From Octopus vulgaris (lineage: Eukaryota), in NCBI GenBank assembly GCA_951406725.2, contig OX597814.1, positions 76,322,001-76,386,000 of the forward strand: a DNA stretch of 64,000 bases, given 5' to 3'. Every line of letters starts with the position of its first letter. Within the stretch, counting starts at the first letter, position 1. The notes under the pieces are model-generated. The model did not search any database. It saw only the letters and a program-made list of their open reading frames with translations, and was not told where the DNA came from. Below are positions 36,049-57,899 of this stretch, piece after piece. A program made the translations under genes and the position numbers.

Positions 36049-36094
<46 letters not shown>

Positions 36095-36096
36095 TA

Positions 36097-36298
36097 CTAG
36101 CTGGTTTACCCGGTAATTCCTGGGGGTAAAGTTGTTCTATTGAAATGTCTTATTACCCTGATATAAGAAAGCAATTTCATTATAACTGCCGGAAAAGGTG
36201 TATTTTCCGTCATGAAAAAGTACAAAAACTGTCAGCTGGAGGCGGGAGAAATTGCTGGAGGTTGGTGAGAGAGGTTGTTGGAAGTTGGCAAGAGAGGT
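36097..36298 (-). mobile_element. Probable Helitron 3' end fragment
   Basis: Minus strand ends with the hairpin CCCAGG-AATTA-CCGGG, 8 nt, then CTAG followed by T. Confidence 0.55.
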
Positions 36299-36438
36299 CT
36301 CTAAGTTATATGATGTATAAAAACATGTAATATACAAATAAATATCTGTAAATATAAAACCATTCGAATTTCTGAGTACCTCATTTCTTCTAATATAAAA
36401 TACCTGTACATCATCTCCAAACCTTCCAATACATATAT

Positions 36439-37891
36439 TTGGATGTACAAGACATCAGAATAATATCAGATCCACAAACAGAAGATACCAAAAATACAGA
36501 AAACATTGAAAAGAATGGAACAGAATCAGGCCCAAAACAGGCTTATACCAAACACACAGAAGACCTAACACAAATCTGCAAAATATGCAATACCAAAATA
36601 AATAAGACAGAATCACATCTTCAACAGGGGAATACCAGAAGCATGGAAGATCTATTCACAGAAACCTGTAGTAAGTTGAATTCACTTCTTTCAAAAATTG
36701 ATACAATCTTTGCTTTAACAATAAATACGATCCAAACACAAAATTATTCTCTCTAAAAATAATCAAGCAAACACAACTGACAACACAAATCTTTTGGTGG
36801 GACCACCCCAATCACAAAGGAAAACAAATGACGAAGGAACAAAAACTGACACAAACCAAGAAAAACCTTCAAAACCCCAAGACTGGAACAAACTTCTAAA
36901 CCAACATAAACATGCTTATTGGAAAAGCATACGCTGTAAGAACATAGCCAACATATACCAAAACTGGCGGGACATGAAGAACCCAATACTCCCTAGAAAA
37001 TTCCTTATCAAAGAAATAAAGGGTGAAACACTAGAAGAAACAACAATACGTGCAAACCTAACCCATTGCTGACTAGAAACAGAAATTTCCCTTCTACAAA
37101 CATGAAACTCACACCAGGAAGATAAGATTAAAACAATTGATACCGTCATAATGGCCGAAATAACAGAAAGGAACAATAACCAAAACAAAGAAAAACTACA
37201 ACAATTATGGAAAGAGGATATCAAACGAGAGGAGGAAAGATCTGGAATTATGTGGACCAAACAACAGGAGTGGCTTTTAAACTACGAAAAGAACTATGGG
37301 GAAAAATCAATTATGAAGACAAAAAAACTACCAAAACAGATGAAAAGATACAACAAACCAACATCACGAAAATATTGGACTCCAAGCCATCCCAATAAGC
37401 CCTACCAAACACAAACCAAAATCCCACTCCTTACACTGCCGAACCCCCAATAAACAGACACACAAAATATGAAAGACGACCTTCAACCCAAAACCCCACA
37501 AAGACAAGCACACAAGCAGCAAGACGAGCATGATACATACAACCAACAACCTATAACACTTGGAGAGAACAAACAGAATATGATCAACCACCAACACATA
37601 ATACTGGATATCCTAAATGGACACACACACATGGAACAATAAACAAGTGGATAGAAATCAACACACAACCTACAACAAACATCGAGGAAATCCAAACCAT
37701 ACAAACACCAACCCCATGCAACCCCACAAATTTACAAGATGGATAAAAAACAACCCCCACTATCAATACAATACAAACACAAAACAAAACCATCCACCTA
37801 CCCACAAAGAAATCTGAACCCCAGTAATAGAAATTGGCTGAACAAAGATGGGAAGAAAACAACTACCAAAGACAAAACAACACATACAGAC

Positions 37892-37964
<73 letters not shown>

Positions 37965-38095
37965 AAGAAAACCTAAGACCTGAAAATGGAATTTGGAGAT
38001 GCAACAGCACAAACCCATTTTTAGGGAAAGGATACTTTAACCATACTCCAGACCCAATACACCAAAAATTCCAAATGAACACACAAAACACATAG
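36439..38095 (+). pseudogene. PLE A ORF1 (helical domain + N/T/Q/H-rich tail), disrupted; carries a (CTA)n insertion at ~37892-37964
   Basis: WNKLLNQHKHAYWKSI..IANIYQNW..PILPRKFLIKEIKGE aligns by eye with PLE B ORF1. Confidence 0.75.
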
Positions 38096-40325
38096 ACCCC
38101 AAAATAATAAACCTATCTAAAAGAGAACTTAATGAAAATGAAATGAACTTACTACTAAAAGGCCTCAAATTTACACCCACACCCACTCCAAATCTCATAG
38201 AACTAAAAACTGATATAGACAACTTCAGCCACCACCTCCGCCTTATGGAATTCTTTGAAAATAAAGAAACAGAAGATAACTCAATCATAAGAAAAAAATC
38301 CCATTTCACCCTTTACAAGGGAAGTGACAAACACCTTGATGCATACATAGAGACAATATCCAAATTCCCTCTCAACACATACAAATGCAATCAGAATCTC
38401 CACAGAGGAGAAAAACAAGCCCTACAAAAACTAAAAAATGACAAGTTGATCATTATAAAAGAAGCTGACAAAGGTGGAGCAATAGTTATTATGGATACTG
38501 ATTACTACAAAGAAAAGATACTGGAGTTGCTGAACAACCAGACATACTATGAAGAGGAACCAACACCACCGGAGAAAGCAACAATAAAAAAAATTAGAAC
38601 TTTAGTCAATGAATACCAGGACTCCTTTACAGATAAGGAGAAAGACTATGCAACTCAAGAACCAAAGATAGCAACTTTTATGGATTACCTAAAATTCATA
38701 AAAGCTCTGAAATACAGAGAGCCATAAAGGAACAGAGGAACCACCATATAAGAATACAAAGGCCTGGAGATCTCACAATGAGACCAATAGTGGCAGGACC
38801 CCAGGCGCCAACACAACAACTAAGCCACTTCATAAATGTACTTCTCAAACCTTTATGCCCACAGATACCAAGCTACATAAGGGATGACATAGACTTCCTC
38901 ACACACATTCCAAATACAGTCCCGAAAAACACCATACTTGCAAGCTTCGATGTCACAAACCTATACATGAACATACCACACACCCTAGGTCTAGAAGCAA
39001 TAAAACAATCGGTAGAAAAATACAAGGAACTCATAGACGAACGTTTCAAGACAGACTTTATCACCCAAGCCACCCAATTAATACTCAAAGAAAATACATC
39101 CTCATTCAACAAGACATACCGACAGATAAAGGGCATGGCTATGGGTACAAAATTCGCACCTTCATATGCCAACCTGGTGATGGTTTTCCTGGAGAACAAA
39201 CTATACGATGACATATAGGGAAAGTCTTTGAACACAACTTCAGAGAAGACATCAAGAAAAAGAGGAAACGCTACCTCGATGACTGCTTTATCTTTTGGAA
39301 CATATCAGAAGAAGACCTACGAACATTCCACAACATCCTCAACACGCTGCACCTATCTACCAACTTCACAATAGATACCAGCCACAACAAACTTCCCTTC
39401 CTAGACATCAACATCAAAATACACAACTCCATCATCACAACAGACATCCACTGTAAAAAACTGACACACACCAATATTTAAATTTCCACTCCTGCCACCC
39501 ATCCCACATAAAAAGAAACATCCCATATAGTATGGCAAGATGAATATGTAGCATAGTAACTGATTCACAAACATGACTAATAAGACTAGATGAACTTAAA
39601 AACTTCCTACTAGAGCAAAAATACCCCTTTAAACTAATAGCAAATGGAATCACAAGAGCAATGAAACTAGACATCGCACAACTCAGGACACCCAAAACAA
39701 AAAACAAAGAAAACAATATCCCTTTCATAAACACACACAACCCTGGAGTTACCAACATGTTCCAAATCATACATTCAAACCTGCCAATAGTCTTGCAAAA
39801 CCCCAAAATGAAAAACATATTAAACAAATATAGCATAAAAAACAGTAGACAACAAGACAAAAACCTAAAGAAACATCTAACAAGAGTGAAATTCTCATCA
39901 GAAACTAAAACTGAATTCTTTGAAAAGAGTGCGGAGATGGTAGATGTGGGATCTGCAACAACCCCACCTACAAATACATAGAGGGAGACAAAGAAATTAA
40001 ATTTAAAAGTGGGCACATATTTAAAATAAATGCAGATATGAACTGCAAGACGCAGAACGTAATATACTGCATAACCTGCTCCACGTGCAAGGAGGATTAT
40101 ATAGGTGAAACTGGAAATTCTTTGTGCCAATGAGCCAGGATTCACCGACAGCATGTCCGACAGGAAGAACTGCGCAAGATACCACTGAGTAAACACCTAG
40201 ATACATGTGGAGAAGGAAAATTTAAGATCTTTCCCTTCTACAAATGTCCAAAGAATGACACCTCCTTCAGGAGGAATATGGAAAAACATTTCATAACTAA
40301 GTTCTCCCCCAAATTGAATTGCTGA
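38017..40325 (+). pseudogene. PLE A RT + GIY-YIG ORF, disrupted
   Basis: KIINLS, KGLKFTP, EADKGG, RPIVAGP, SFDVTNLY, GMAMGT, RYLDDCF, CGDGRCGIC linker, NVIYCITCSTC..YIGETG, FKIFPF. Confidence 0.93.
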
Positions 40326-40743
40326 AAATATCTCTATAATAAGCTGTACCAGATGAAGGACCAAATTTGTTAAGTAAACTGTATTAAACACACACACAGA
40401 GTTCTATACATATGTTTTGATTTTTGAAAATACAACATTGAACAAAGGATATTCTAATATTTCAATGAAACCATTTCACTTTAATTTGTGGAACCAGTTG
40501 CTCCTGTATGATAAAACTTAATATTTATTTAACTGTCAATCAGTGAGATATTAGACAAATCAATTGAAGATCAGACAACAGACTCAGTAGTTGTCAGTTT
40601 GTATTCTGTCATCTGTAACTTCAACACAAGAAAGTCTCTTTTTCAAGTATGGACCTTATGAAATTTTGCTCATCATACATTGAAGGACAAATCTTTCAAG
40701 TTACAATTTAACATAGTTACAATTTAACATAGTGTAGCATTTA

Positions 40744-40815
<72 letters not shown>

Positions 40816-41145
40816 GTATAAATATCAACACAATTATTTCTTCCCTTTTATTTTTCTTCTTCTTCTTCTTCTTCTTCTTCTTCTTCTTCTTCTTCTTCTT
40901 CTTCTTCTTCTCCTTTCTTCCCTTCTCCAAACTCACAGACACCCCCCACACACACACCTCCACAAAACAATAATAAAAAAAATTCTTCTCTAAAACCCCA
41001 AAACCATTTGACTATCCCTCATTAAACACACACACATACACACTCTCTCACAATGGAAATATAATTTATGGTCTACCTTCTTATGTCCCTCCCCACCACT
41101 ACACACTCAATAACACTATAAAATGGTCAAAACTCTTTACACAGG

Positions 41146-41207
41146 AACTTAGTTCGATTTGAAAACCCCACTAGAATGGGAGAAAACGCTAATACATGAT
41201 CTAAGTT
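41146..41207 (+). ncRNA. Minimal type I hammerhead ribozyme (U3:A8 variant) in PLE A pLTR
   Basis: Stem I AACTTAG/CTAAGTT with a bulged inner part; core TTGAAAA (41159-65); stem II CCCA/TGGG; GAAA (41182-85); near-palindromic A-ACGC-T; predicted cut after A41191. Confidence 0.7.
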
Positions 41208-41291
41208 ATATGATGTATAAAAACATGTAATATTCAAATAAATATCTGTAAATATAAAACCATCCAAATTTCTGAGTACCTCATTTCTTCT

Positions 41292-41325
<34 letters not shown>

Positions 41326-46000: not shown

Positions 46001-46144
46001 TTAGGAAGGGCATCCAGCTGTAGAAACACCGCCAGATCTGACTGGCCTGGTACAGCCTTCAGGCTTGCCAGACCCCAGTTGAACCGTCCAACCCATGCTA
46101 GCATGGAAGCGGACGTTAACCGATGATGATGATGATGATGATGA

Positions 46145-46147
<3 letters not shown>
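43040..46147 (+). mobile_element. RTE LINE (APE C-terminus, RT, PHD-like finger, 3'UTR), 5'-truncated and frameshifted
   Basis: SQIDYVL..QHRLV, KAPGPSG, NYRGIKL, FVDLEKAFD, LLYADDL, CSIC..CNKC..WTHKRC..CARC; (GAT)n tail; flanked by (AT)n. Confidence 0.97.
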
Positions 46148-46182
<35 letters not shown>

Positions 46183-46223
46183 TCATCATCATCATCATCA
46201 TCGGTTAACGTCCGCTTTCCATG

Positions 46224-46288
<65 letters not shown>

Positions 46289-50238: not shown

Positions 50239-50271
<33 letters not shown>

Positions 50272-50295
50272 GGATAAATTTGAAAACATGATTAA

Positions 50296-50415
50296 AAATG
50301 ACTTTTCTTATAATTTTTCCACATTAATAATTAGATGTTTATAAATTAAATACCTAATTATTAAAGTGGAAAAATTATCAGAAAAGCCATTTCTATTCAT
50401 TTTTTCAAATATATA

Positions 50416-50482
<67 letters not shown>

Positions 50483-50549
50483 ATGCGTGTGTGTGTGTGT
50501 GTGAACATACACATGCATATATGAATGTATATATATGCACACACATGCA

Positions 50550-50598
<49 letters not shown>

Positions 50599-51055
50599 TT
50601 GATTCAGTCCAAGTATATGTAACTCATTTAACAGAGAAAATGAAAAAAAGTAACCAACATGAACTATCAAATTATCAATTTTCAGCCCTGCAGCTTGAGT
50701 GTAATGATTTAAAAGTACTGTACTGAGATACCATAAATCTTGATCTATTGACAAGTAGATTATAAATTCTATCTAAAAGCATTTGATCAACCAAATTAAA
50801 GATATTGATTTCTTAGGCACAAGGTCACAAGTTGTGTGCAGTGGGAATAATTTATTAAATCAAACAGCACTTGACTGGTACTTTACTCAAGAAGGAAAAC
50901 AAAGTTGATCCTGGTTGGATTTCAATTCAAAATGGACAGGGTTGAACTGGCAAATTCTTCCAAATAAAATTTTCAGACTTTTATCCAAATTTCCCCAACT
51001 TCTTTTATTCTCTGTTATTTTTTGTAATGCCCTACATAGCTCCACTCAGAATCAA

Positions 51056-51128
<73 letters not shown>

Positions 51129-51207
51129 TGCATGTGTGTGCATATATATACATTCATATATGCATGTGTATGTTCACACACACACACACACGCACGCGCA
51201 CACACAC

Positions 51208-51253
<46 letters not shown>

Positions 51254-51366
51254 TTGAAAAAATGAATAGAAATGGCTTTTCTGATAATTTTTCCACTTTA
51301 ATAATTAGGTATTTAATTTATAAACATCTAATTATTAATGTGGAAAAATTATAAGAAAAGTCATTT
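50296..51366. repeat. Inverted duplication of ~310 bp (50296-50605 vs 51049-51366)
   Basis: Unique AT-rich parts are identical; differences are mainly in microsatellite length. Confidence 0.95.
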
Positions 51367-51453
51367 CAGTTTGTCAACATTTGTCCCTCTTCGGTGTATG
51401 TAAGTATATGTATGTGTATATGTATACACACACACACACACACACGCACACAC

Positions 51454-52021: not shown

Positions 52022-53812
52022 TATATATAGATAAGAAAGTTGGTTTGTGAAAGCACGTGGTTGAATATATAGAAAATAGTAAAAAGTGAAAAAGCTACAG
52101 AAGGCTTAAAGGTTAAAAAATATATATTTTGAGTCAATATGTCTGAAGAATATTAAAAATTTTTTTCTTACAATGACATAGTTTAGAAGAAAGACCTGTT
52201 TCGCGTTTAGCTTTTCAAATTTCTTACATTATGTTTATGTTGAACAGAGTTTTCGTTATGTTTATGTTTAAAAGAGTTCTAAATAAGGGGAGGTAATGAG
52301 TGATTTCTTCCGGTGTAAGGGAGATAATCGCTTAAAATTTTTTTCCTTTCCCTTGGTGTGAATTTCTCTGTGTCAGTATGTTGGTATGGTTAAGTCTGGG
52401 CTTGTACTTTTCAATGAAGAATGTTTCCTTGTTTAGTCTAATTTGTGTTGATGATCTGATAACACATTGGTAAAATGGAAAGATTAAAAATTGTGGTAGT
52501 AGTTACTTTGCACATTTCTCAATGTGCTCACTAAAAGGTATCATTCTGTATTCTGGGAATGCAATCTGTTGTCGATGCAGTGCGCATCTACATCTGAGTG
52601 ATAGTCCCGTGAATCCCATGTAGTCTTGGTGGCAGCCTGAGCATTTTATGACATAAATTATGTTTTCAGAGGCACAAGTAAAGTTAGATTTGATCTTGAA
52701 TTTCTATCCCTCTTTAAAGAGGAATTCTGATCCTTCTTGCAGGTTTGGACATGTTGCCCAGTTCGATCTACCACATTTTTTTACTTTTGCATCCGTAATT
52801 TCAGAAAACAATTTTGCCTTTGTGAGAATCTTTTTAAGTGATTTAGGTTGTTTGTAGCTTTTAATGATTTGGTGTATGTTTAGAATTTCCTTTAATTTGG
52901 GGTCCTTATGAAGTATTGGTAAATTCTGGGTGATGATGGTGAAGGCTTCTTTGTTTCTGGGGTTGTATGTAGATATGTAAGGTAGTATTTTCGGGGAAGG
53001 TGTGTTGTTGTGTTGAACTTTTCTTAAAGTTTCTATGTTGATTTCTGTTGCACGTCTGATCCCATCCTCTATGAGTTGAGCTGGGTAATGTCTGTCAATT
53101 AGGGTGTTTTTGAGTTCTTGCAGTCTAAAGTTCCTGGTATTTTGTTCTGACACTATTGTGCATATCCTTCTTGCAAGGTTGAAGAGGATGTTTGTTTTAG
53201 TGTGTCTTGGGTGGCATGAATTAAAAAGAAGGTATTATTTGGCGTCTGTGGCTTTGTAAAAAATGTCTGTTTCTATTTTAAGGTTAATTTTTTTAATTAG
53301 TATATCCAAGAACAGGAGCTCCTTTTGGTTGTATTCCATTGTGAATTGTATATTTGGGTTTATGCTGTTCAATAGGTTTTTAAATTTTAGGAGTTTATCT
53401 GTGTTTTCATTCCAGAGTATAAAACAATCGTCTAAGAATCGTTTCCAATTCTCTTTTATGTATTGAGAAAGGGGGTTTCTAAAGATTGATAAAGATTCCT
53501 GGTAAATGATTATTTCCATGTAGCCCATTGTTAGGTTCGCAATGACTGGTGCTGCCCTTGTACCCATAGCAATTCCGGATTTTTGACGGTAAAATGTATT
53601 GTCAAACATGAAGTGGTTATTATGTAGGATGAATTCAATTGATTTAGTAATGAATTCTTTACTGATCCTTTTTGGTATTTCTTCCGGAAATTGGTCCAGC
53701 CAGAACTGTATTGCCTCTAGTCCATAATTATGAGGTATACTGGTATATAAGTTAACTACATCAAATGAAACCAGGATTGTTTCTTCCTTGGCTTTTTTTG
53801 GAAGGTGGTTTA
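52022..53812 (-). mobile_element. Inverted 5'-truncated copy of PLE B
   Basis: Near-identical reverse complement of 56105-57850 plus further pLTR sequence. Confidence 0.97.
52187..52225 (-). ncRNA. Minimal hammerhead ribozyme (U3:A8 variant) in inverted PLE B copy
   Basis: Minus strand: AAGAAA-T-TTGAAAA-GC-TAAAC-GC-GAAA-C-AG-GTC-TTTCTT. Confidence 0.75.
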
Positions 53813-53945
53813 TTGACTCAAATATATATTTTTTAACCTTTAAGCCTTCTGTAGTTTTTTCACTTTTTACTATTTTCTATATATTCAACCACGTGCTTTC
53901 ACAAACCAACTTTCTTATCTATATATTAAACATGTGAGACCGAAA

Positions 53946-55289
53946 ATGCTACAGAAGACCAACACCTCGGATAAAACTACAAATGAGGACATTCTCAAAG
54001 AACTGAAAAGTATTAATACACAGCTCATTACCCTGAACAACAAAATCGAGGAATCAAACCTACTCGCCCGGGAAAGTAAAAGCAGTGAAGATACAACTCG
54101 CTACACTGACCAGGTTAGTAAGGTTTGGAACTGTTATACACAACACTAAATTCAATTTTCATCAACAAATCCGAAAATAAAAAACACACACCAAATGAAA
54201 CACAGTAGGACATCATACGCACCCAAATTAACCCAGTAAAAAGAAAAATTGGAAACATTTGGAATACAAACCTGCACAATAGAAAACTCGCCTTCTGGAA
54301 CATGATAAAAAATTCCAACAAAGCAGATATATACGAGGGATGGATGAACTCAACACCAATTATCCTCCCACGCAAATTCCAGATAAAATTAATTCCTAAC
54401 GAGCCTGACGGACAGAGAACTATTAGGGAAAAGTCAGCTCTGTTCAATTTAAGATCAGAAATAGAGCTTCTAAGACTAAGGGCCTCCACAAATGAGGAAA
54501 AATTTAAAAGCATCGACGAGGAGATGCACAATATAATACAAAAACATACCGAGGGACAACCCCTCGAAAATACATTAGATCATTGGAAGGATACCTGTGA
54601 AAAAAAAGAGAGAAATTCTCTCCTGCGCTGGGAGAAAAACATCGATTTCTTCCAAAAATATAGTTCAACTTTCAAAAATGAATTGGGTACAAATAATCCC
54701 TTCCTTAAGAAAATTACCAAAAATAAAAAAGAAAAACCAAACAACCCCCAACTATCCTCCATACACTAAAAACAGAAATCACCCACAACCAACCTTTGCA
54801 AACCACGCAAGACCTAACAGGGAACTAGCTGACAGACGACGCGTCTATGAAATAAATTACACCAAAAACAGAACACACCAACAACATCCTAATACCAGAC
54901 CCAACCACCATACACCACAAAACGACACTAGAATAAGAAATACACCACACACAAGTCGCTACTACCCCATGAACCAAAATTACTGGTCCCCACTGAACAC
55001 TAGACAAACGCAAAAAAACACTATGTCAAGCAACATCCCACATACAAGCAGTTCGAAACAAAAATATTTCACATACAGAAATTTTACACACACCACAAAC
55101 AAAAACAACCATAGATTCCCCCACACACACAACGATCGGGGGCAACAATACCACCATTCCCCCGACCCAATATCACACAACCTCACAGACAACTCATACA
55201 AACAAAATTACACCCAACATTTTTTAGCCAGGGACCAGAGACACCAGGACACAGGCTGGAACCTAGTAATAAGGAAAAACCGAAGATAA
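53946..55289 (+). pseudogene. PLE B ORF1 (coiled-coil-like + helical domain + low-complexity tail), disrupted
   Basis: ILKELKSINTQLITLNNKIEE heptads; WNTNLHNRKLAFWNMIKN..ADIYEGW..PIILPRKFQIKLIPNE. Confidence 0.78.
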
Positions 55290-57584
55290 TCAATCTTTCA
55301 ACCAAACCTCTTTCTAACATAAAAATTGACATCCTCTCAAAAGGGCTCAAATTTACACCACCTCCACGCAGAGCCAACCTAAATGAAATCAAGGATAATA
55401 TAACAGAATTTTGCAGAAAATTAAGACTAGCAGAAGCATCAACCAGTTTCAATACTGAAGATGAATCACTAGTCAAGAACAAAAGTGAACACATCCCACA
55501 CAGAGGAAGAAATAAAGATCTTGACGAATTCTGTAACCACATTGAGAACTTTCTCTACCATACTATACATAAACAGAAAGTTAACTCAAATTTTAACACT
55601 ACACAATGGAAGGAACTGATAGAACTTCAAAATGATGAGGATATAACCATTAAGGAAGCAGACAAGGGAAATGCAGTTGTAATAATGGATACATCATACT
55701 ATAGAAATCTTGTAATTTCCTTGCTTGATGACGACCTACATTATGAAAAAATTACCAACTACACCCCACAAAAAATAATGAAAACTCTATCTTCACTAAT
55801 TAAAACCCATGAAAAGGAACTAACAACCAAAGAGATTGACTTTCTAACAAACTTTAAATGCAAACCTAGCCTTTTCTATGGTCTGCCAAAAATTCATAAA
55901 AGCCAAATTATAAATGAAACCATTAAAAAATCACCAAAGACATACATACACACACCTAACCCGGGGGACCTAAAACTACGACCCATTGTAGCTGGCCCAA
56001 CCTGTGAAACACACAGACTAAGTCTATTTATGGATTTATGGACATCCTCCTGAAACCCTTCCATAAACATATCGATAGCCATATCAGAGATGACTTAGAT
56101 ATGTTAAACCACCTTCCAAAAAAAGCCAAGGAAGAAACAATCCTGGTTTCATTTGATGTAGTTAACTTATATACCAGTATACCTCATAATTATGGACTAG
56201 AGGCAATACAGTTCTGGCTGGACCAATTTCCGGAAGAAATACCAAAAAGGATCAGTAAAGAATTCATTACTAAATCAATTGAATTCATCCTACATAATAA
56301 CCACTTCATGTTTGACAATACATTTTACCGTCAAAAATCCGGAATTGCTATGGGTACAAGGGCAGCACCAGTCATTGCGAACCTAACAATGGGCTACATG
56401 GAAATAATCATTTACCAGGAATCTTTATCAATCTTTGGAAACCCCTTTCTCAATACATAAAAGAGAATTGGAAACGATTCTTAGACGATTGTTTTATACT
56501 CTGGAATGAAAACACAGATAAACTCCTAAAATTTAAAAACCTATTGAACAGCATAAACCCAAATATACAATTCACAATGGAATACAACCAAAAGGAGCTC
56601 CCGTTCTTGGATATACTAATTAAAAAAATTAACCTTAAAATAGAAACAGACATTTTTTACAAAGCCACAGACGCCAAATAATACCTTCTTTTTAATTCAT
56701 GCCACCCAAGACACACTAAAACAAACATCCTCTTCAACCTTGCAAGAAGGATATGCACAATAGTGTCAGAACAAAATACCAGGAACTTTAGACTGCAAGA
56801 ACTCAAAAACACCCTAATTGACAGACATTACCCAGCTCAACTCATAGAGGATGGGATCAGACGTGCAACAGAAATCAACATAGAAACTTTAAGAAAAGTT
56901 CAACACAACAACACACCTTCCCCGAAAATACTACCTTACATATCTACATACAACCCCAGAAACAAAGAAGCCTTCACCATCATCACCCAGAATTTACCAA
57001 TACTTCATAAGGACCCCAAATTAAAGGAAATTCTAAACATACACCAAATCATTAAAAGCTACAAACAACCTAAATCACTTAAAAAGATTCTCACAAAGGC
57101 AAAATTGTTTTCTGAAATTACGGATGCAAAAGTAAAAAAATGTGGTAGATCGAACTGGGCAACATGTCCAAACCTGCAAGAAGGATCAGAATTCCTCTTT
57201 AAAGAGGGACAGAAATTCAAGATCAAATCTAACTTTACTTGTGCCTCTGAAAACATAATTTATGTCATAAAATGCTCAGGCTGCCACCAAGACTACGTGG
57301 GATTCACGGGACTATCACTCAGATGTAGATGCGCACTGCATCGACAACAGATTGCATTCCCAGAATACAGAATGATACCTTTTAGTGAGCACATTGAGAA
57401 ATGTGCAAAGTAACTACTACCACAATTTTTAATCTTTCCATTTTACCAATGTGCTATCGGATCATCAACACAAATTAGACTAAACAAGGAAACATTCTTC
57501 ATTGAAAAGTACAAGCCCAGACTTAACCATACCAACATACTGACACAGAGAAATTCACACCAAGGGAAAGGAAAAAAATTTTAA
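55220..57584 (+). pseudogene. PLE B RT + GIY-YIG ORF, few disruptions
   Basis: KIINLS, KGLKFTP, EADKGN, FYGLPKIHK, RPIVAGP, SFDVVNLY, GIAMGT, RFLDDCF, NIIYVIKCSGCHQDYVG, FLIFPF. Confidence 0.95.
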
Positions 57585-57693
57585 GCAATTATCTCCCTTA
57601 CACCGGAAGAAATCACTCATTACCTCCCCTTATTTAGAACTCTTTTAAACATAAACATAACGAAAACTCTGTTCAACATAAACATAACGTCGT

Positions 57694-57732
57694 AAGAAAT
57701 TTGAAAAGCTAAACGCGAAACCAGTCTTTCTT
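57694..57732 (+). ncRNA. Minimal type I hammerhead ribozyme (U3:A8 variant) in PLE B pLTR
   Basis: AAGAAA-T-TTGAAAA-GC-TAAAC-GC-GAAA-C-CA-GTC-TTTCTT; GUC triplet, predicted cut after C57726. Confidence 0.75.
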
Positions 57733-57839
57733 CTAAACTATGTCATTGTAAGAAAAAAATTTTTAATATTCTTCAGACATATTGACTCAAATATATATTT
57801 TTTAACCTTTAAGCCTTCTGTAGTTTTTTCACTTTTTAC

Positions 57840-57899
<60 letters not shown>

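What the first reader, a model, noticed from the sequence alone, without database searches (positions are those of the whole stretch)
41146..41207. Same U3:A8 hammerhead core in PLE A with completely different stems
Seen: TTGAAAA..GAAA..TA core, with stems unrelated in sequence to PLE B (AACTTAG/CTAAGTT; CCCA/TGGG; AACGCT, one change from the palindrome AGCGCT). The element's 5' repeat (36300) begins about 9 nt after the predicted cleavage site, as expected if ribozyme cleavage defines the template 5' end. Inference: U3:A8 is a lineage trait that co-occurs with the two-ORF architecture.
Basis: partly seen in the sequence, partly recalled or inferred. Interest (0 to 1): 0.72.

Follow-up and report, generated by a model that had tools for sequence, protein, structure and literature searches.

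The report
Drifting hammerhead core in Penelope retroelement
A jumping gene carries a predicted self-cutting RNA motif with an already published swapped base pair; its sister subfamilies spread with three versions of that pair, and copies mostly begin in front of the motif rather than at its predicted cut, so cutting likely does not set their start.

Summary
The motif is real: a type I hammerhead (core UUGAAAA 41159-41165, GAAA, palindromic helix III, predicted cut after 41191) in the terminal repeat of a two-ORF, Neptune/Nematis-type Penelope-like element. U3:A8 is the family state (30/30), but it is published (PMC3088659, PMC4209133), and this scan noted it before elsewhere in this genome. 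The 5'-end claim mostly fails: 36 of 41 copies picked by downstream sequence alone extend past the cut and 3 start at it; 15 start at 41145-41154, the ribozyme's 5' edge, about 30 nt behind a conserved TATAAAA (likely a transcription start). The lineage-trait claim holds only in part: three two-ORF families have U3:A8, but two sister subfamilies of this one carry U3.G8 (24/30) and C3:G8 (30/30), with compensatory helix II changes and a recurrent A13C. The direction of change is unresolved (copy ages favour C:G to U:A; protein outgroups weakly favour the reverse). Best reading: a slow, dimer- or protein-dependent ribozyme whose fold is under selection but whose cleavage does not define copy ends. 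Side finding: three families share an in-frame UUUUUUA at a -1 ORF1/ORF2 overlap.

The parts
41117..41123 (+). TATAAAA, candidate TATA box; inferred promoter element about 30-34 nt before the pile-up of copy starts
   Evidence: Sequence; found 41-42 nt before core position 3 in 23 of 30 alpha, 38-41 nt in 26 of 30 beta and 34-37 nt in 24 of 30 gamma loci. Function inferred.
41145..41154 (+). Pile-up of 5' ends of family copies; 5' edge of helix I; candidate transcription start (TTAGTTC resembles an initiator, consensus recalled)
   Evidence: 11 of 30, 4 of 11, 9 of 18 places read by eye; binomial tests
41146..41158 (+). Helix I 5' arm: distal AACTTAG (7 bp, alpha-specific pairing), then TCG and AT
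   Evidence: the partner CTAAGTT is absent from beta and gamma
41159..41165 (+). Core positions 3-9, UUGAAAA (U3 41159, A8 41164)
   Evidence: U3:A8 in 30 of 30 alpha loci; TTGAAAA in 23 of 41 copies picked by downstream sequence only, none with C3 or G8
41166..41181 (+). Helix II: 4 bp CCCA/UGGG, 6-nt loop, C10.1.A11.1 mismatch
   Evidence: 10.2:11.2 is C-G in alpha (26 of 30), U-A in beta (27 of 30) and gamma (29 of 30)
41182..41191 (+). GAAA (12-15.1), helix III palindrome (family AGCGCU, this copy AACGCU), U16.1, A17; predicted cut after 41191
   Evidence: self-duplex -8.3 kcal/mol for the family hexamer, -2.1 for this copy
41192..41207 (+). Helix I 3' arm with ACA bulge
41200..41297 (+). 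3' end of the element, repeated at 36300-36397; ends in (TA)n
   Evidence: 96% identical repeat; family copies end here or 41 nt further
36300..36438 (+). 5' partial repeat (36300-36397) plus the 41-nt optional tail sequence (36398-36438)
   Evidence: tail in 25 of 41 copies
36394..38060 (+). ORF1, broken in this copy (557 aa stop to stop in sister copies L291, L293); no Pfam match
   Evidence: third codon positions change most between alpha and delta
38017..38023 (+). Remnant of the predicted -1 slippery site (five T here, six in sister copies)
38041..40325 (+). ORF2 (RT, CxxxxCxxC linker, GIY-YIG), broken in this copy
   Evidence: intact sister L291 matches RVT_1 and GIY-YIG above cut-off; motifs
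57694..57732 (+). PLE B hammerhead: same UUGAAAA core (57701-57707), 2-bp helix II, ACCGGU palindrome in the family, extra U before position 3; predicted cut after 57726

Best explanation
This is a predicted type I hammerhead ribozyme in the terminal repeat of a two-ORF Penelope-like retrotransposon, likely slow and dependent on pairing with a second copy, whose fold is likely kept by selection while its cleavage likely does not set where copies begin. Shown: the motif, its family state, three states of the 3:8 pair in sister subfamilies, paired changes in helix II, and where copies start and end. Inferred steps: (1) transcription starts at about 41147-41151, behind TATAAAA, so the RNA opens with the ribozyme; (2) reverse transcription starts internally 105 or 146 nt past the cut site (the two 3' ends, as shown in vitro for the anole element); (3) on uncut RNA it runs off at the RNA's 5' end, giving the short copies that begin at the ribozyme's edge; (4) copies that reach further upstream need a template that is continuous across the cut site, either uncut tandem RNA or a cut and re-ligated circle; (5) cleavage, if it happens, needs the AGCGCU palindromes of two motifs to pair and possibly the element's protein; (6) weak dependence on catalysis let the 3:8 pair pass through a U.G wobble, more likely C:G to U.G to U:A (about 65%) than the reverse.
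For: Covariation on 15 chosen representatives: 3:8 paired in 15 of 15 (CG 6, UA 5, UG 4), 10.2:11.2 UA 10 / CG 5, 0 of 500 shuffles reach the score, slid controls 29-43% paired against 85%. Subfamily tallies. In a tree of flanks without the ribozyme, beta lies between gamma and alpha/delta. 36 of 41 A copies, 29 of 30 B and 30 of 30 C extend upstream of the cut. Pile-up at 41145-41154: P 4e-5 (junctions, p=0.15) and 1e-4 to 4e-3 (microhomology nulls p=0.125-0.2). Two fixed 3' ends 41 nt apart. Literature: hammerhead mutants do not affect insertion in vitro, uncut RNA is the main substrate, cleavage needs protein (PMC11167929); PLE minimal hammerheads cut poorly and only as dimers (PMC4209133). 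Order of subfamilies: terminal branches gamma 0.039-0.049, beta 0.032 (one copy), alpha 0.017-0.033, delta 0.004-0.009; four distant C3:G8 relatives share U10.2 with beta and gamma.
Against: No activity and no RNA 5' end was measured. The shuffle control ignores relatedness and the rows were hand-picked. 3 of 41 A copies, 2 of 18 places and 1 of 30 plus 2 of 30 B copies do start exactly at the cut. The pile-up is not general: weak in B (6 of 30 at -42 to -32), absent in C. Some counted copies are not independent (L252/L253 are two arms of one insertion; L232/L233 may be a duplication; L314 is in both). Protein trees with outgroups root the lineage at delta (bootstrap 76; site tallies 15:11, 6:4, 6:6), which would make U3:A8 ancestral. 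Flank divergence ranks beta (0.044) above gamma (0.036). The distant C3:G8 relatives were found with a pattern that demands C3:G8. A13C and loss of G10.1-C11.1 suggest decay, not only drift.
Confidence: 0.6

Rival explanations
1. One reading: the ribozyme cuts the transcript and the cut is the template's 5' end; U3:A8 is an inherited marker of a two-ORF lineage.
For: A few copies start exactly at the cut. Families A, B and C are all two-ORF and U3:A8 in their young subfamilies. Outgroup rooting at delta would make U3:A8 ancestral in A.
Against: Most copies extend past the cut. The cut site is followed by ATA(C/T)AT, which matches the (TA)n target, so junctions there are expected without cleavage. 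ORF1-bearing beta and gamma are not U3:A8.
Confidence: 0.12
2. The motif is a catalytically dead relic kept only as a structure (protein-binding, packaging or promoter-proximal hairpin); core changes are neutral drift under AT-biased mutation.
For: Whole subfamilies spread with U3.G8 (24 of 30), A13C (28 of 30 gamma; also the youngest intact copies L291-L293) and no G10.1-C11.1. In one deep mutational scan only the C3G/G8C swap rescued this region; other single and double changes were low (PMC9901934). Low folding stability.
Against: The 3:8 pair is Watson-Crick at both ends of the series and U4, G5, A6, A9, G12, A14, A15.1, U16.1 and the palindrome stay fixed while N7 varies, which is the pattern of an active-site fold. 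U3:A8 ribozymes are reported active (PMC3088659). Family C keeps a textbook fold around U3:A8.
Confidence: 0.18
3. The pile-up at 41145-41154 is made during reverse transcription or joining, not by a transcription start: the new cDNA folds back on helix I or a splice acceptor lies there, and TA microhomology fixes the junction.
For: Several starts are at inverted junctions (L250, L252, L315); TA at 41150 matches the target; CAG|G at 41142-41145 and TAG at 41150-41152 look like acceptors, and the Drosophila virilis Penelope intron ends at the 5' end of helix I (PMC4209133).
Against: Other TA/AT sites in the same 75 nt get far fewer junctions; no shared upstream exon is seen in the flanks; the AG is missing in gamma and delta while TATAAAA is kept.
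Confidence: 0.1

Closest known systems
U3-A8 minimal hammerheads of Schistosoma mansoni Cercyon PLEs (Cervera & de la Pena 2014, PMC4209133; parts 1-2 of 4 read)
   Same: Type I motif in the PLE terminal repeat, U3-A8 core (about 1,300 hits there), palindromic helix III, predicted dimer.
   Different: Here helix II is 4 bp with a C.A closing mismatch instead of 7-8 bp with G10.1-C11.1; sister subfamilies carry U3.G8, C3:G8 and A13C; the host element has two ORFs.
Natural U3-A8 hammerheads (Perreault et al. 2011, PMC3088659; passages and section 8 read)
   Same: The same compensatory core change, reported as natural and active.
   Different: The section read describes no wobble intermediate and no A13C; figures and supplements not seen.
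Poseidon element PAc of Anolis carolinensis (Frangieh et al. 2024, PMC11167929; parts 1-2 of 4 read)
   Same: Two internal RT start sites that give an optional tail; hammerhead upstream of them; no reads ending at the cut; cleavage not needed for insertion in vitro.
   Different: PAc has a C3:G8 core overlapping a single ORF; here the motif lies before ORF1 of a two-ORF element with a Cys-rich linker.
Neptune/Nematis EN+ PLEs (Craig et al. 2021, PMC8557442; passages read)
   Same: RT, CX2-5CxxC linker, C-terminal GIY-YIG, pseudo-LTR, tail, (TA)n target, hammerhead near the 3' end.
   Different: Canonical EN+ PLEs are described there as single-ORF; here ORF1 overlaps ORF2 in the -1 frame. The Fig. 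1 legend mentions an ORF1 with frameshift for some PLE type; the figure was not visible (recalled as Athena).

Membership tests
Type I hammerhead (PLE type) | Core N3-U4-G5-A6-N7-N8-A9 with a Watson-Crick 3:8 pair | tested here: met
   UUGAAAA; U3:A8 in 30 of 30 alpha loci
Type I hammerhead (PLE type) | G12-A13-A14-A15.1 and U16.1-H17 | tested here: met
   GAAA 41182-41185, UA 41190-41191; 29-30 of 30 per position
Type I hammerhead (PLE type) | Helices I and II flank the core and co-vary | tested here: met
   helix I has only 2 bp next to the core before a bulge
Type I hammerhead (PLE type) | G10.1-C11.1 closing pair (highly conserved, not absolute) | tested here: not met
   C.A in 29 of 30 alpha, C.C in 25 of 30 beta, A-U in 21 of 30 gamma; mismatches here occur in nature
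Type I hammerhead (PLE type) | Palindromic helix III for dimer formation | tested here: met
   Family AGCGCT 23 of 30; broken in the window copy
Type I hammerhead (PLE type) | Match to an Rfam hammerhead model | tested here: not met
   No hammerhead family among 135 matches at E<=5
Type I hammerhead (PLE type) | Site-specific self-cleavage | not testable with these tools
   No assay; only contigs available
EN+ Penelope-like element, Neptune/Nematis type | RT plus C-terminal GIY-YIG endonuclease | tested here: met
   Intact sister copy L291: RVT_1 40.3 bits, GIY-YIG 26.4 bits, both above cut-off; window copy 92% identical over ORF2
EN+ Penelope-like element, Neptune/Nematis type | CX2-5CxxC linker between RT and EN | tested here: met
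EN+ Penelope-like element, Neptune/Nematis type | Pseudo-LTR, optional tail, (TA)n target | tested here: met
EN+ Penelope-like element, Neptune/Nematis type | Single ORF | tested here: not met
   Two overlapping ORFs in intact copies of A and C, same layout in B; so it works like these clades but is not filed as a canonical member
EN+ Penelope-like element, Neptune/Nematis type | Placement with named Neptune or Nematis RTs in a tree | not tested
   No named reference set was fetched; the clade label rests on the linker motif

The most novel reading that the evidence does not exclude
A two-ORF clade of endonuclease-bearing Penelope-like elements makes its RT by -1 frameshifting on a conserved UUUUUUA, opens its transcript with the hammerhead, and has amplified thousands of copies while the ribozyme core walked through a U3.G8 wobble and repeatedly took A13C: a natural dated series showing that PLE hammerheads work as protein-assisted or non-catalytic structures with a relaxed core.
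Probability: 0.3. Interest if true: 0.68.

Novelty: new variant of a known kind. Interest (0 to 1): 0.38.

Why it matters
What hammerheads do in Penelope-like elements is an open question (stated in PMC8557442 and PMC11167929). The U3:A8 core itself adds nothing new. The useful part is a set of closely related, successfully amplified subfamilies with C3:G8, U3.G8, U3:A8 and A13C cores in one genome, which makes the need for catalysis directly testable, and a map of copy ends showing that the cut site is not where copies begin. The shared -1 slippery site would extend frameshift-controlled RT expression to endonuclease-bearing PLEs, if it is not already in a figure or in Repbase entries that I could not see.

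Tried and rejected
Rfam scan: no hammerhead match. Folding energy as evidence: not significant for any of 7 motifs (z -0.97 to +0.85). My first reading of 11 loci as full copies running into ORF1 was wrong; they end at the 41-nt tail. L226 (family C with C3:G8) was first taken as a C3:G8 family; 28 of the 29 other loci show U3:A8 and one gave no motif, so it is a singleton found by a pattern demanding C3:G8 and is not used as evidence. Of 20 canonical-core places fetched, only 3 had a PLE protein match within 10 kb. Rooting with distant proteins (55-60% identity) contradicts the age ladder and is weak. Sequencing runs: no RNA holder listed on record, only contigs, so no statement on expression, starts or cleavage; contig depth steps were not used. 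Cross-species loci: none in metagenome contigs; one 29% match in a bacterial genome bin, not followed. No fused ORF1-ORF2 protein among longer proteins (weak evidence). No convincing stimulatory hairpin shared after the slippery site (pseudoknots not tested). Papers not held: PMC5850863, doi 10.1261/rna.631207, PMC2271363. Searches for prior print; none returned a description of this family, of A13C or of a slippery site in EN+ PLEs, but most subscription papers and Repbase are not covered, and figures and supplements (notably of PMC4209133 and PMC8557442) were not opened and may bear on this.

Full report
Observation. They form a type I hammerhead: helix I 41146-41158 with 41192-41207, core UUGAAAA 41159-41165, helix II 41167-41170 with 41177-41180, GAAA 41182-41185, helix III 41185-41190, predicted cut after A41191. 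A descriptor written after seeing the motif hits once in the window and 0 times in 60 shuffles. Rfam does not detect it and its folding energy is unremarkable (z -0.97), so the case rests on the core and on covariation.

Context. The motif lies in the 3' repeat of a decayed Penelope-like element at 36300-41297. The genome is 2.8 Gb; earlier notes of this scan call it octopus (not checked). A near-intact sister copy matches RVT_1 and GIY-YIG above cut-off and has the CX2-5CxxC linker that marks Neptune and Nematis (PMC8557442). Copies end in (TA)n at 41297 or 41 nt further (tail in 25 of 41), the optional tail known for PLEs (PMC11167929).

Is U3:A8 the family state? Yes. 30 of 30 loci found with a query that includes the motif have U3:A8 and 23 of 30 the AGCGCT palindrome. 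Among 41 copies picked only by downstream sequence, 23 read TTGAAAA, 6 carry a damaged core that still has U3 and A8, 2 align only spuriously and 10 lack or only partly carry the core. U3:A8 is not new: it was reported as natural and active in 2011 (PMC3088659) and in Schistosoma PLEs in 2014 (PMC4209133). Earlier notes of this scan report it in several other repeats of this genome (unchecked).

Does the cut define the 5' end? I picked copies by the 98 nt downstream of the cut (top 40 scored of 1,399 candidates) and mapped where homology begins. Of the first 30: 12 reach 41082 or further upstream, 11 start at 41147-41154, 5 at 41158-41173, 2 after the cut, one of them the window's own copy. 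Of 11 more: 4 start at 41145-41153, 3 at 41162-41182, 3 at 41192, 1 runs past 41079. So 36 of 41 cross the cut, 3 start at it, 15 start at the 5' edge of helix I. A pattern for (TA)n within 75 nt of the downstream anchor gave 658 rows; the 100 listed collapse by eye to 18 places, of which 9 start at 41147-41151 and 2 at 41192 (one place shared). Binomial tails are 4e-5 for and 1e-4 to 4e-3 for under microhomology-type nulls; a few copies are not independent. Family B: 29 of 30 cross the cut, 1 starts at it, 6 start 32-42 nt before it; 2 of 30 ORF1-selected B loci start at it through inverted junctions. Family C: 30 of 30 cross it, none starts within 50 nt. This does not show the ribozyme is inactive: with RT starting downstream of the cut, a re-ligated circle also gives copies that cross the site (model in PMC4209133).

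What makes the pile-up? TATAAAA at 41117 lies 30-34 nt upstream and is kept in alpha, beta and gamma (23, 26 and 24 of 30). I infer a transcription start at the ribozyme's 5' edge and RT run-off on uncut RNA, in line with the in vitro result that uncut RNA is the main substrate. cDNA fold-back or a splice acceptor are the rivals. No RNA data could decide, and B and C do not show the same sharp peak.

Is U3:A8 a trait of a two-ORF lineage? The two-ORF layout is real: L291 and L293 have a 557-aa and a 775-aa frame overlapping in the -1 frame with T TTT TTA in frame; the same heptamer sits at the junction in B and in a third family, C (437 and 785 aa). The ORF1s are 32-40% identical and show third-position bias. 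B and C are U3:A8. But two diverged ORF1-bearing copies of family A led to sister subfamilies: beta with U3.G8 in 24 of 30 and gamma with C3:G8 in 30 of 30 and A13C in 28 of 30 (each set is the top 30 hits to its own query, which included the motif). Pair 10.2:11.2 is U-A in beta and gamma and C-G in alpha; N7 varies; U4, G5, A6, A9, G12, A14, A15.1, U16.1 and the palindrome stay. On 15 hand-picked representatives 85% of cells pair and 9 of 13 pairs show a double change. A tree of flanks without the ribozyme (97 of 103 copies; 3 duplicates and 3 without usable flanks left out) places beta between gamma and alpha/delta. The 3:8 pair therefore changed inside one two-ORF lineage, through a wobble.

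Direction. Terminal branch lengths form a ladder, gamma oldest, then beta (one copy), alpha, delta, and four distant relatives with C3:G8 share U10.2 with beta and gamma, though they were found with a C3:G8 pattern. Protein trees with distant outgroups root at delta instead (bootstrap 76, site tallies close to even), and flank divergence ranks beta above gamma.

Mechanism. Most likely a slow ribozyme that needs two palindromes to pair (-8.3 kcal/mol for the family hexamer, -2.1 for this copy) and perhaps the element's protein. PLE minimal hammerheads behave so in vitro. Selection keeps the fold, but subfamilies with a wobble, A13C or no G10.1-C11.1 still amplified; A13C appears in gamma, in the youngest intact A copies and in an unrelated motif at L327/L274. 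One mutational scan found all core changes except the C3G/G8C swap low in activity in its construct (PMC9901934), so a dead relic remains possible. The window's own copy has lost the palindrome and its ORFs and is probably inert.

Papers seen: PMC4209133 and PMC11167929, parts 1-2 of 4; bioRxiv 10.64898/2026.07.22.740005, part 1 of 5; PMC3088659, passages and section 8; PMC8557442, PMC9901934, PMC3846280, PMC6431247, PMC7229834, PMC5408684, PMC6962438, passages only. No figures or supplements. The initiator consensus, the slippery-site rule X XXY YYZ and the attribution of the frameshifted ORF1 to Athena are recalled, not from a call.

Verdict. What is added is a subfamily series of core states, a start-site pile-up at the ribozyme's edge and a shared slippery site. 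New variant of a known kind; interest 0.38.

Noticed in passing
window 38017-38023; L291:2110-2116; L305:1823-1829; L359 (minus strand, ORF1/ORF2 overlap): In-frame UUUUUUA at a -1 overlap of ORF1 and the RT-EN frame in three PLE families whose ORF1s are only 32-40% identical. Predicted programmed frameshift; no shared stimulatory hairpin found.
   Followed up: partly
L091-L120; L291-L293; L327 and L274: GAAA changed to GCAA (A13C) three times independently: gamma subfamily, youngest intact family-A copies, and a fourth motif (TTGATAA core, short element with its own tail, often next to family C ends).
   Followed up: partly
L181-L210 (e.g. G000:C1:20002278-20004542): Tandem and inverted arrays of a 359-360 bp repeat with a fully canonical hammerhead, no PLE protein match in the 3 loci tested; fits a non-LTR retrozyme. 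Pattern count 130 against 2 for the control.
   Followed up: no
L226 = G000:C13:524775-524806: One near-identical family-C copy has both core positions as C3:G8 while 28 others are U3:A8; chance under ascertainment or conversion from an unseen subfamily.
   Followed up: partly
window 41201-41207: The distal 7 bp of helix I are alpha-specific: beta has the 5' arm but a TATATGA repeat in place of the partner; three substitutions all create complementarity, as a fold-back-templated change would.
   Followed up: no
window 41079-41134: The window copy lacks about 220 nt between two 56-bp direct repeats present in many family copies.
   Followed up: no
window 52065-57853: PLE B is an inverted-plus-direct structure with 99% identical arms; its hammerhead has an extra U before position 3 and only 2 bp in helix II.
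   Followed up: partly
window 36092-36299: About 200 nt between the upstream (TA)n and the element's 5' end match no other fetched locus; origin unknown, so the 5' end at 36300 may be secondary.
   Followed up: partly
proteins P0030, P0035, P0062, P0090, P0118: Close ORF2 homologues are labelled as proteins of bacterial symbionts of bivalves; probably host DNA in those assemblies (inference).
   Followed up: no
window 50240-51421 and 46103-46226: Further inverted-repeat structures built from microsatellite-rich repeats.
   Followed up: no
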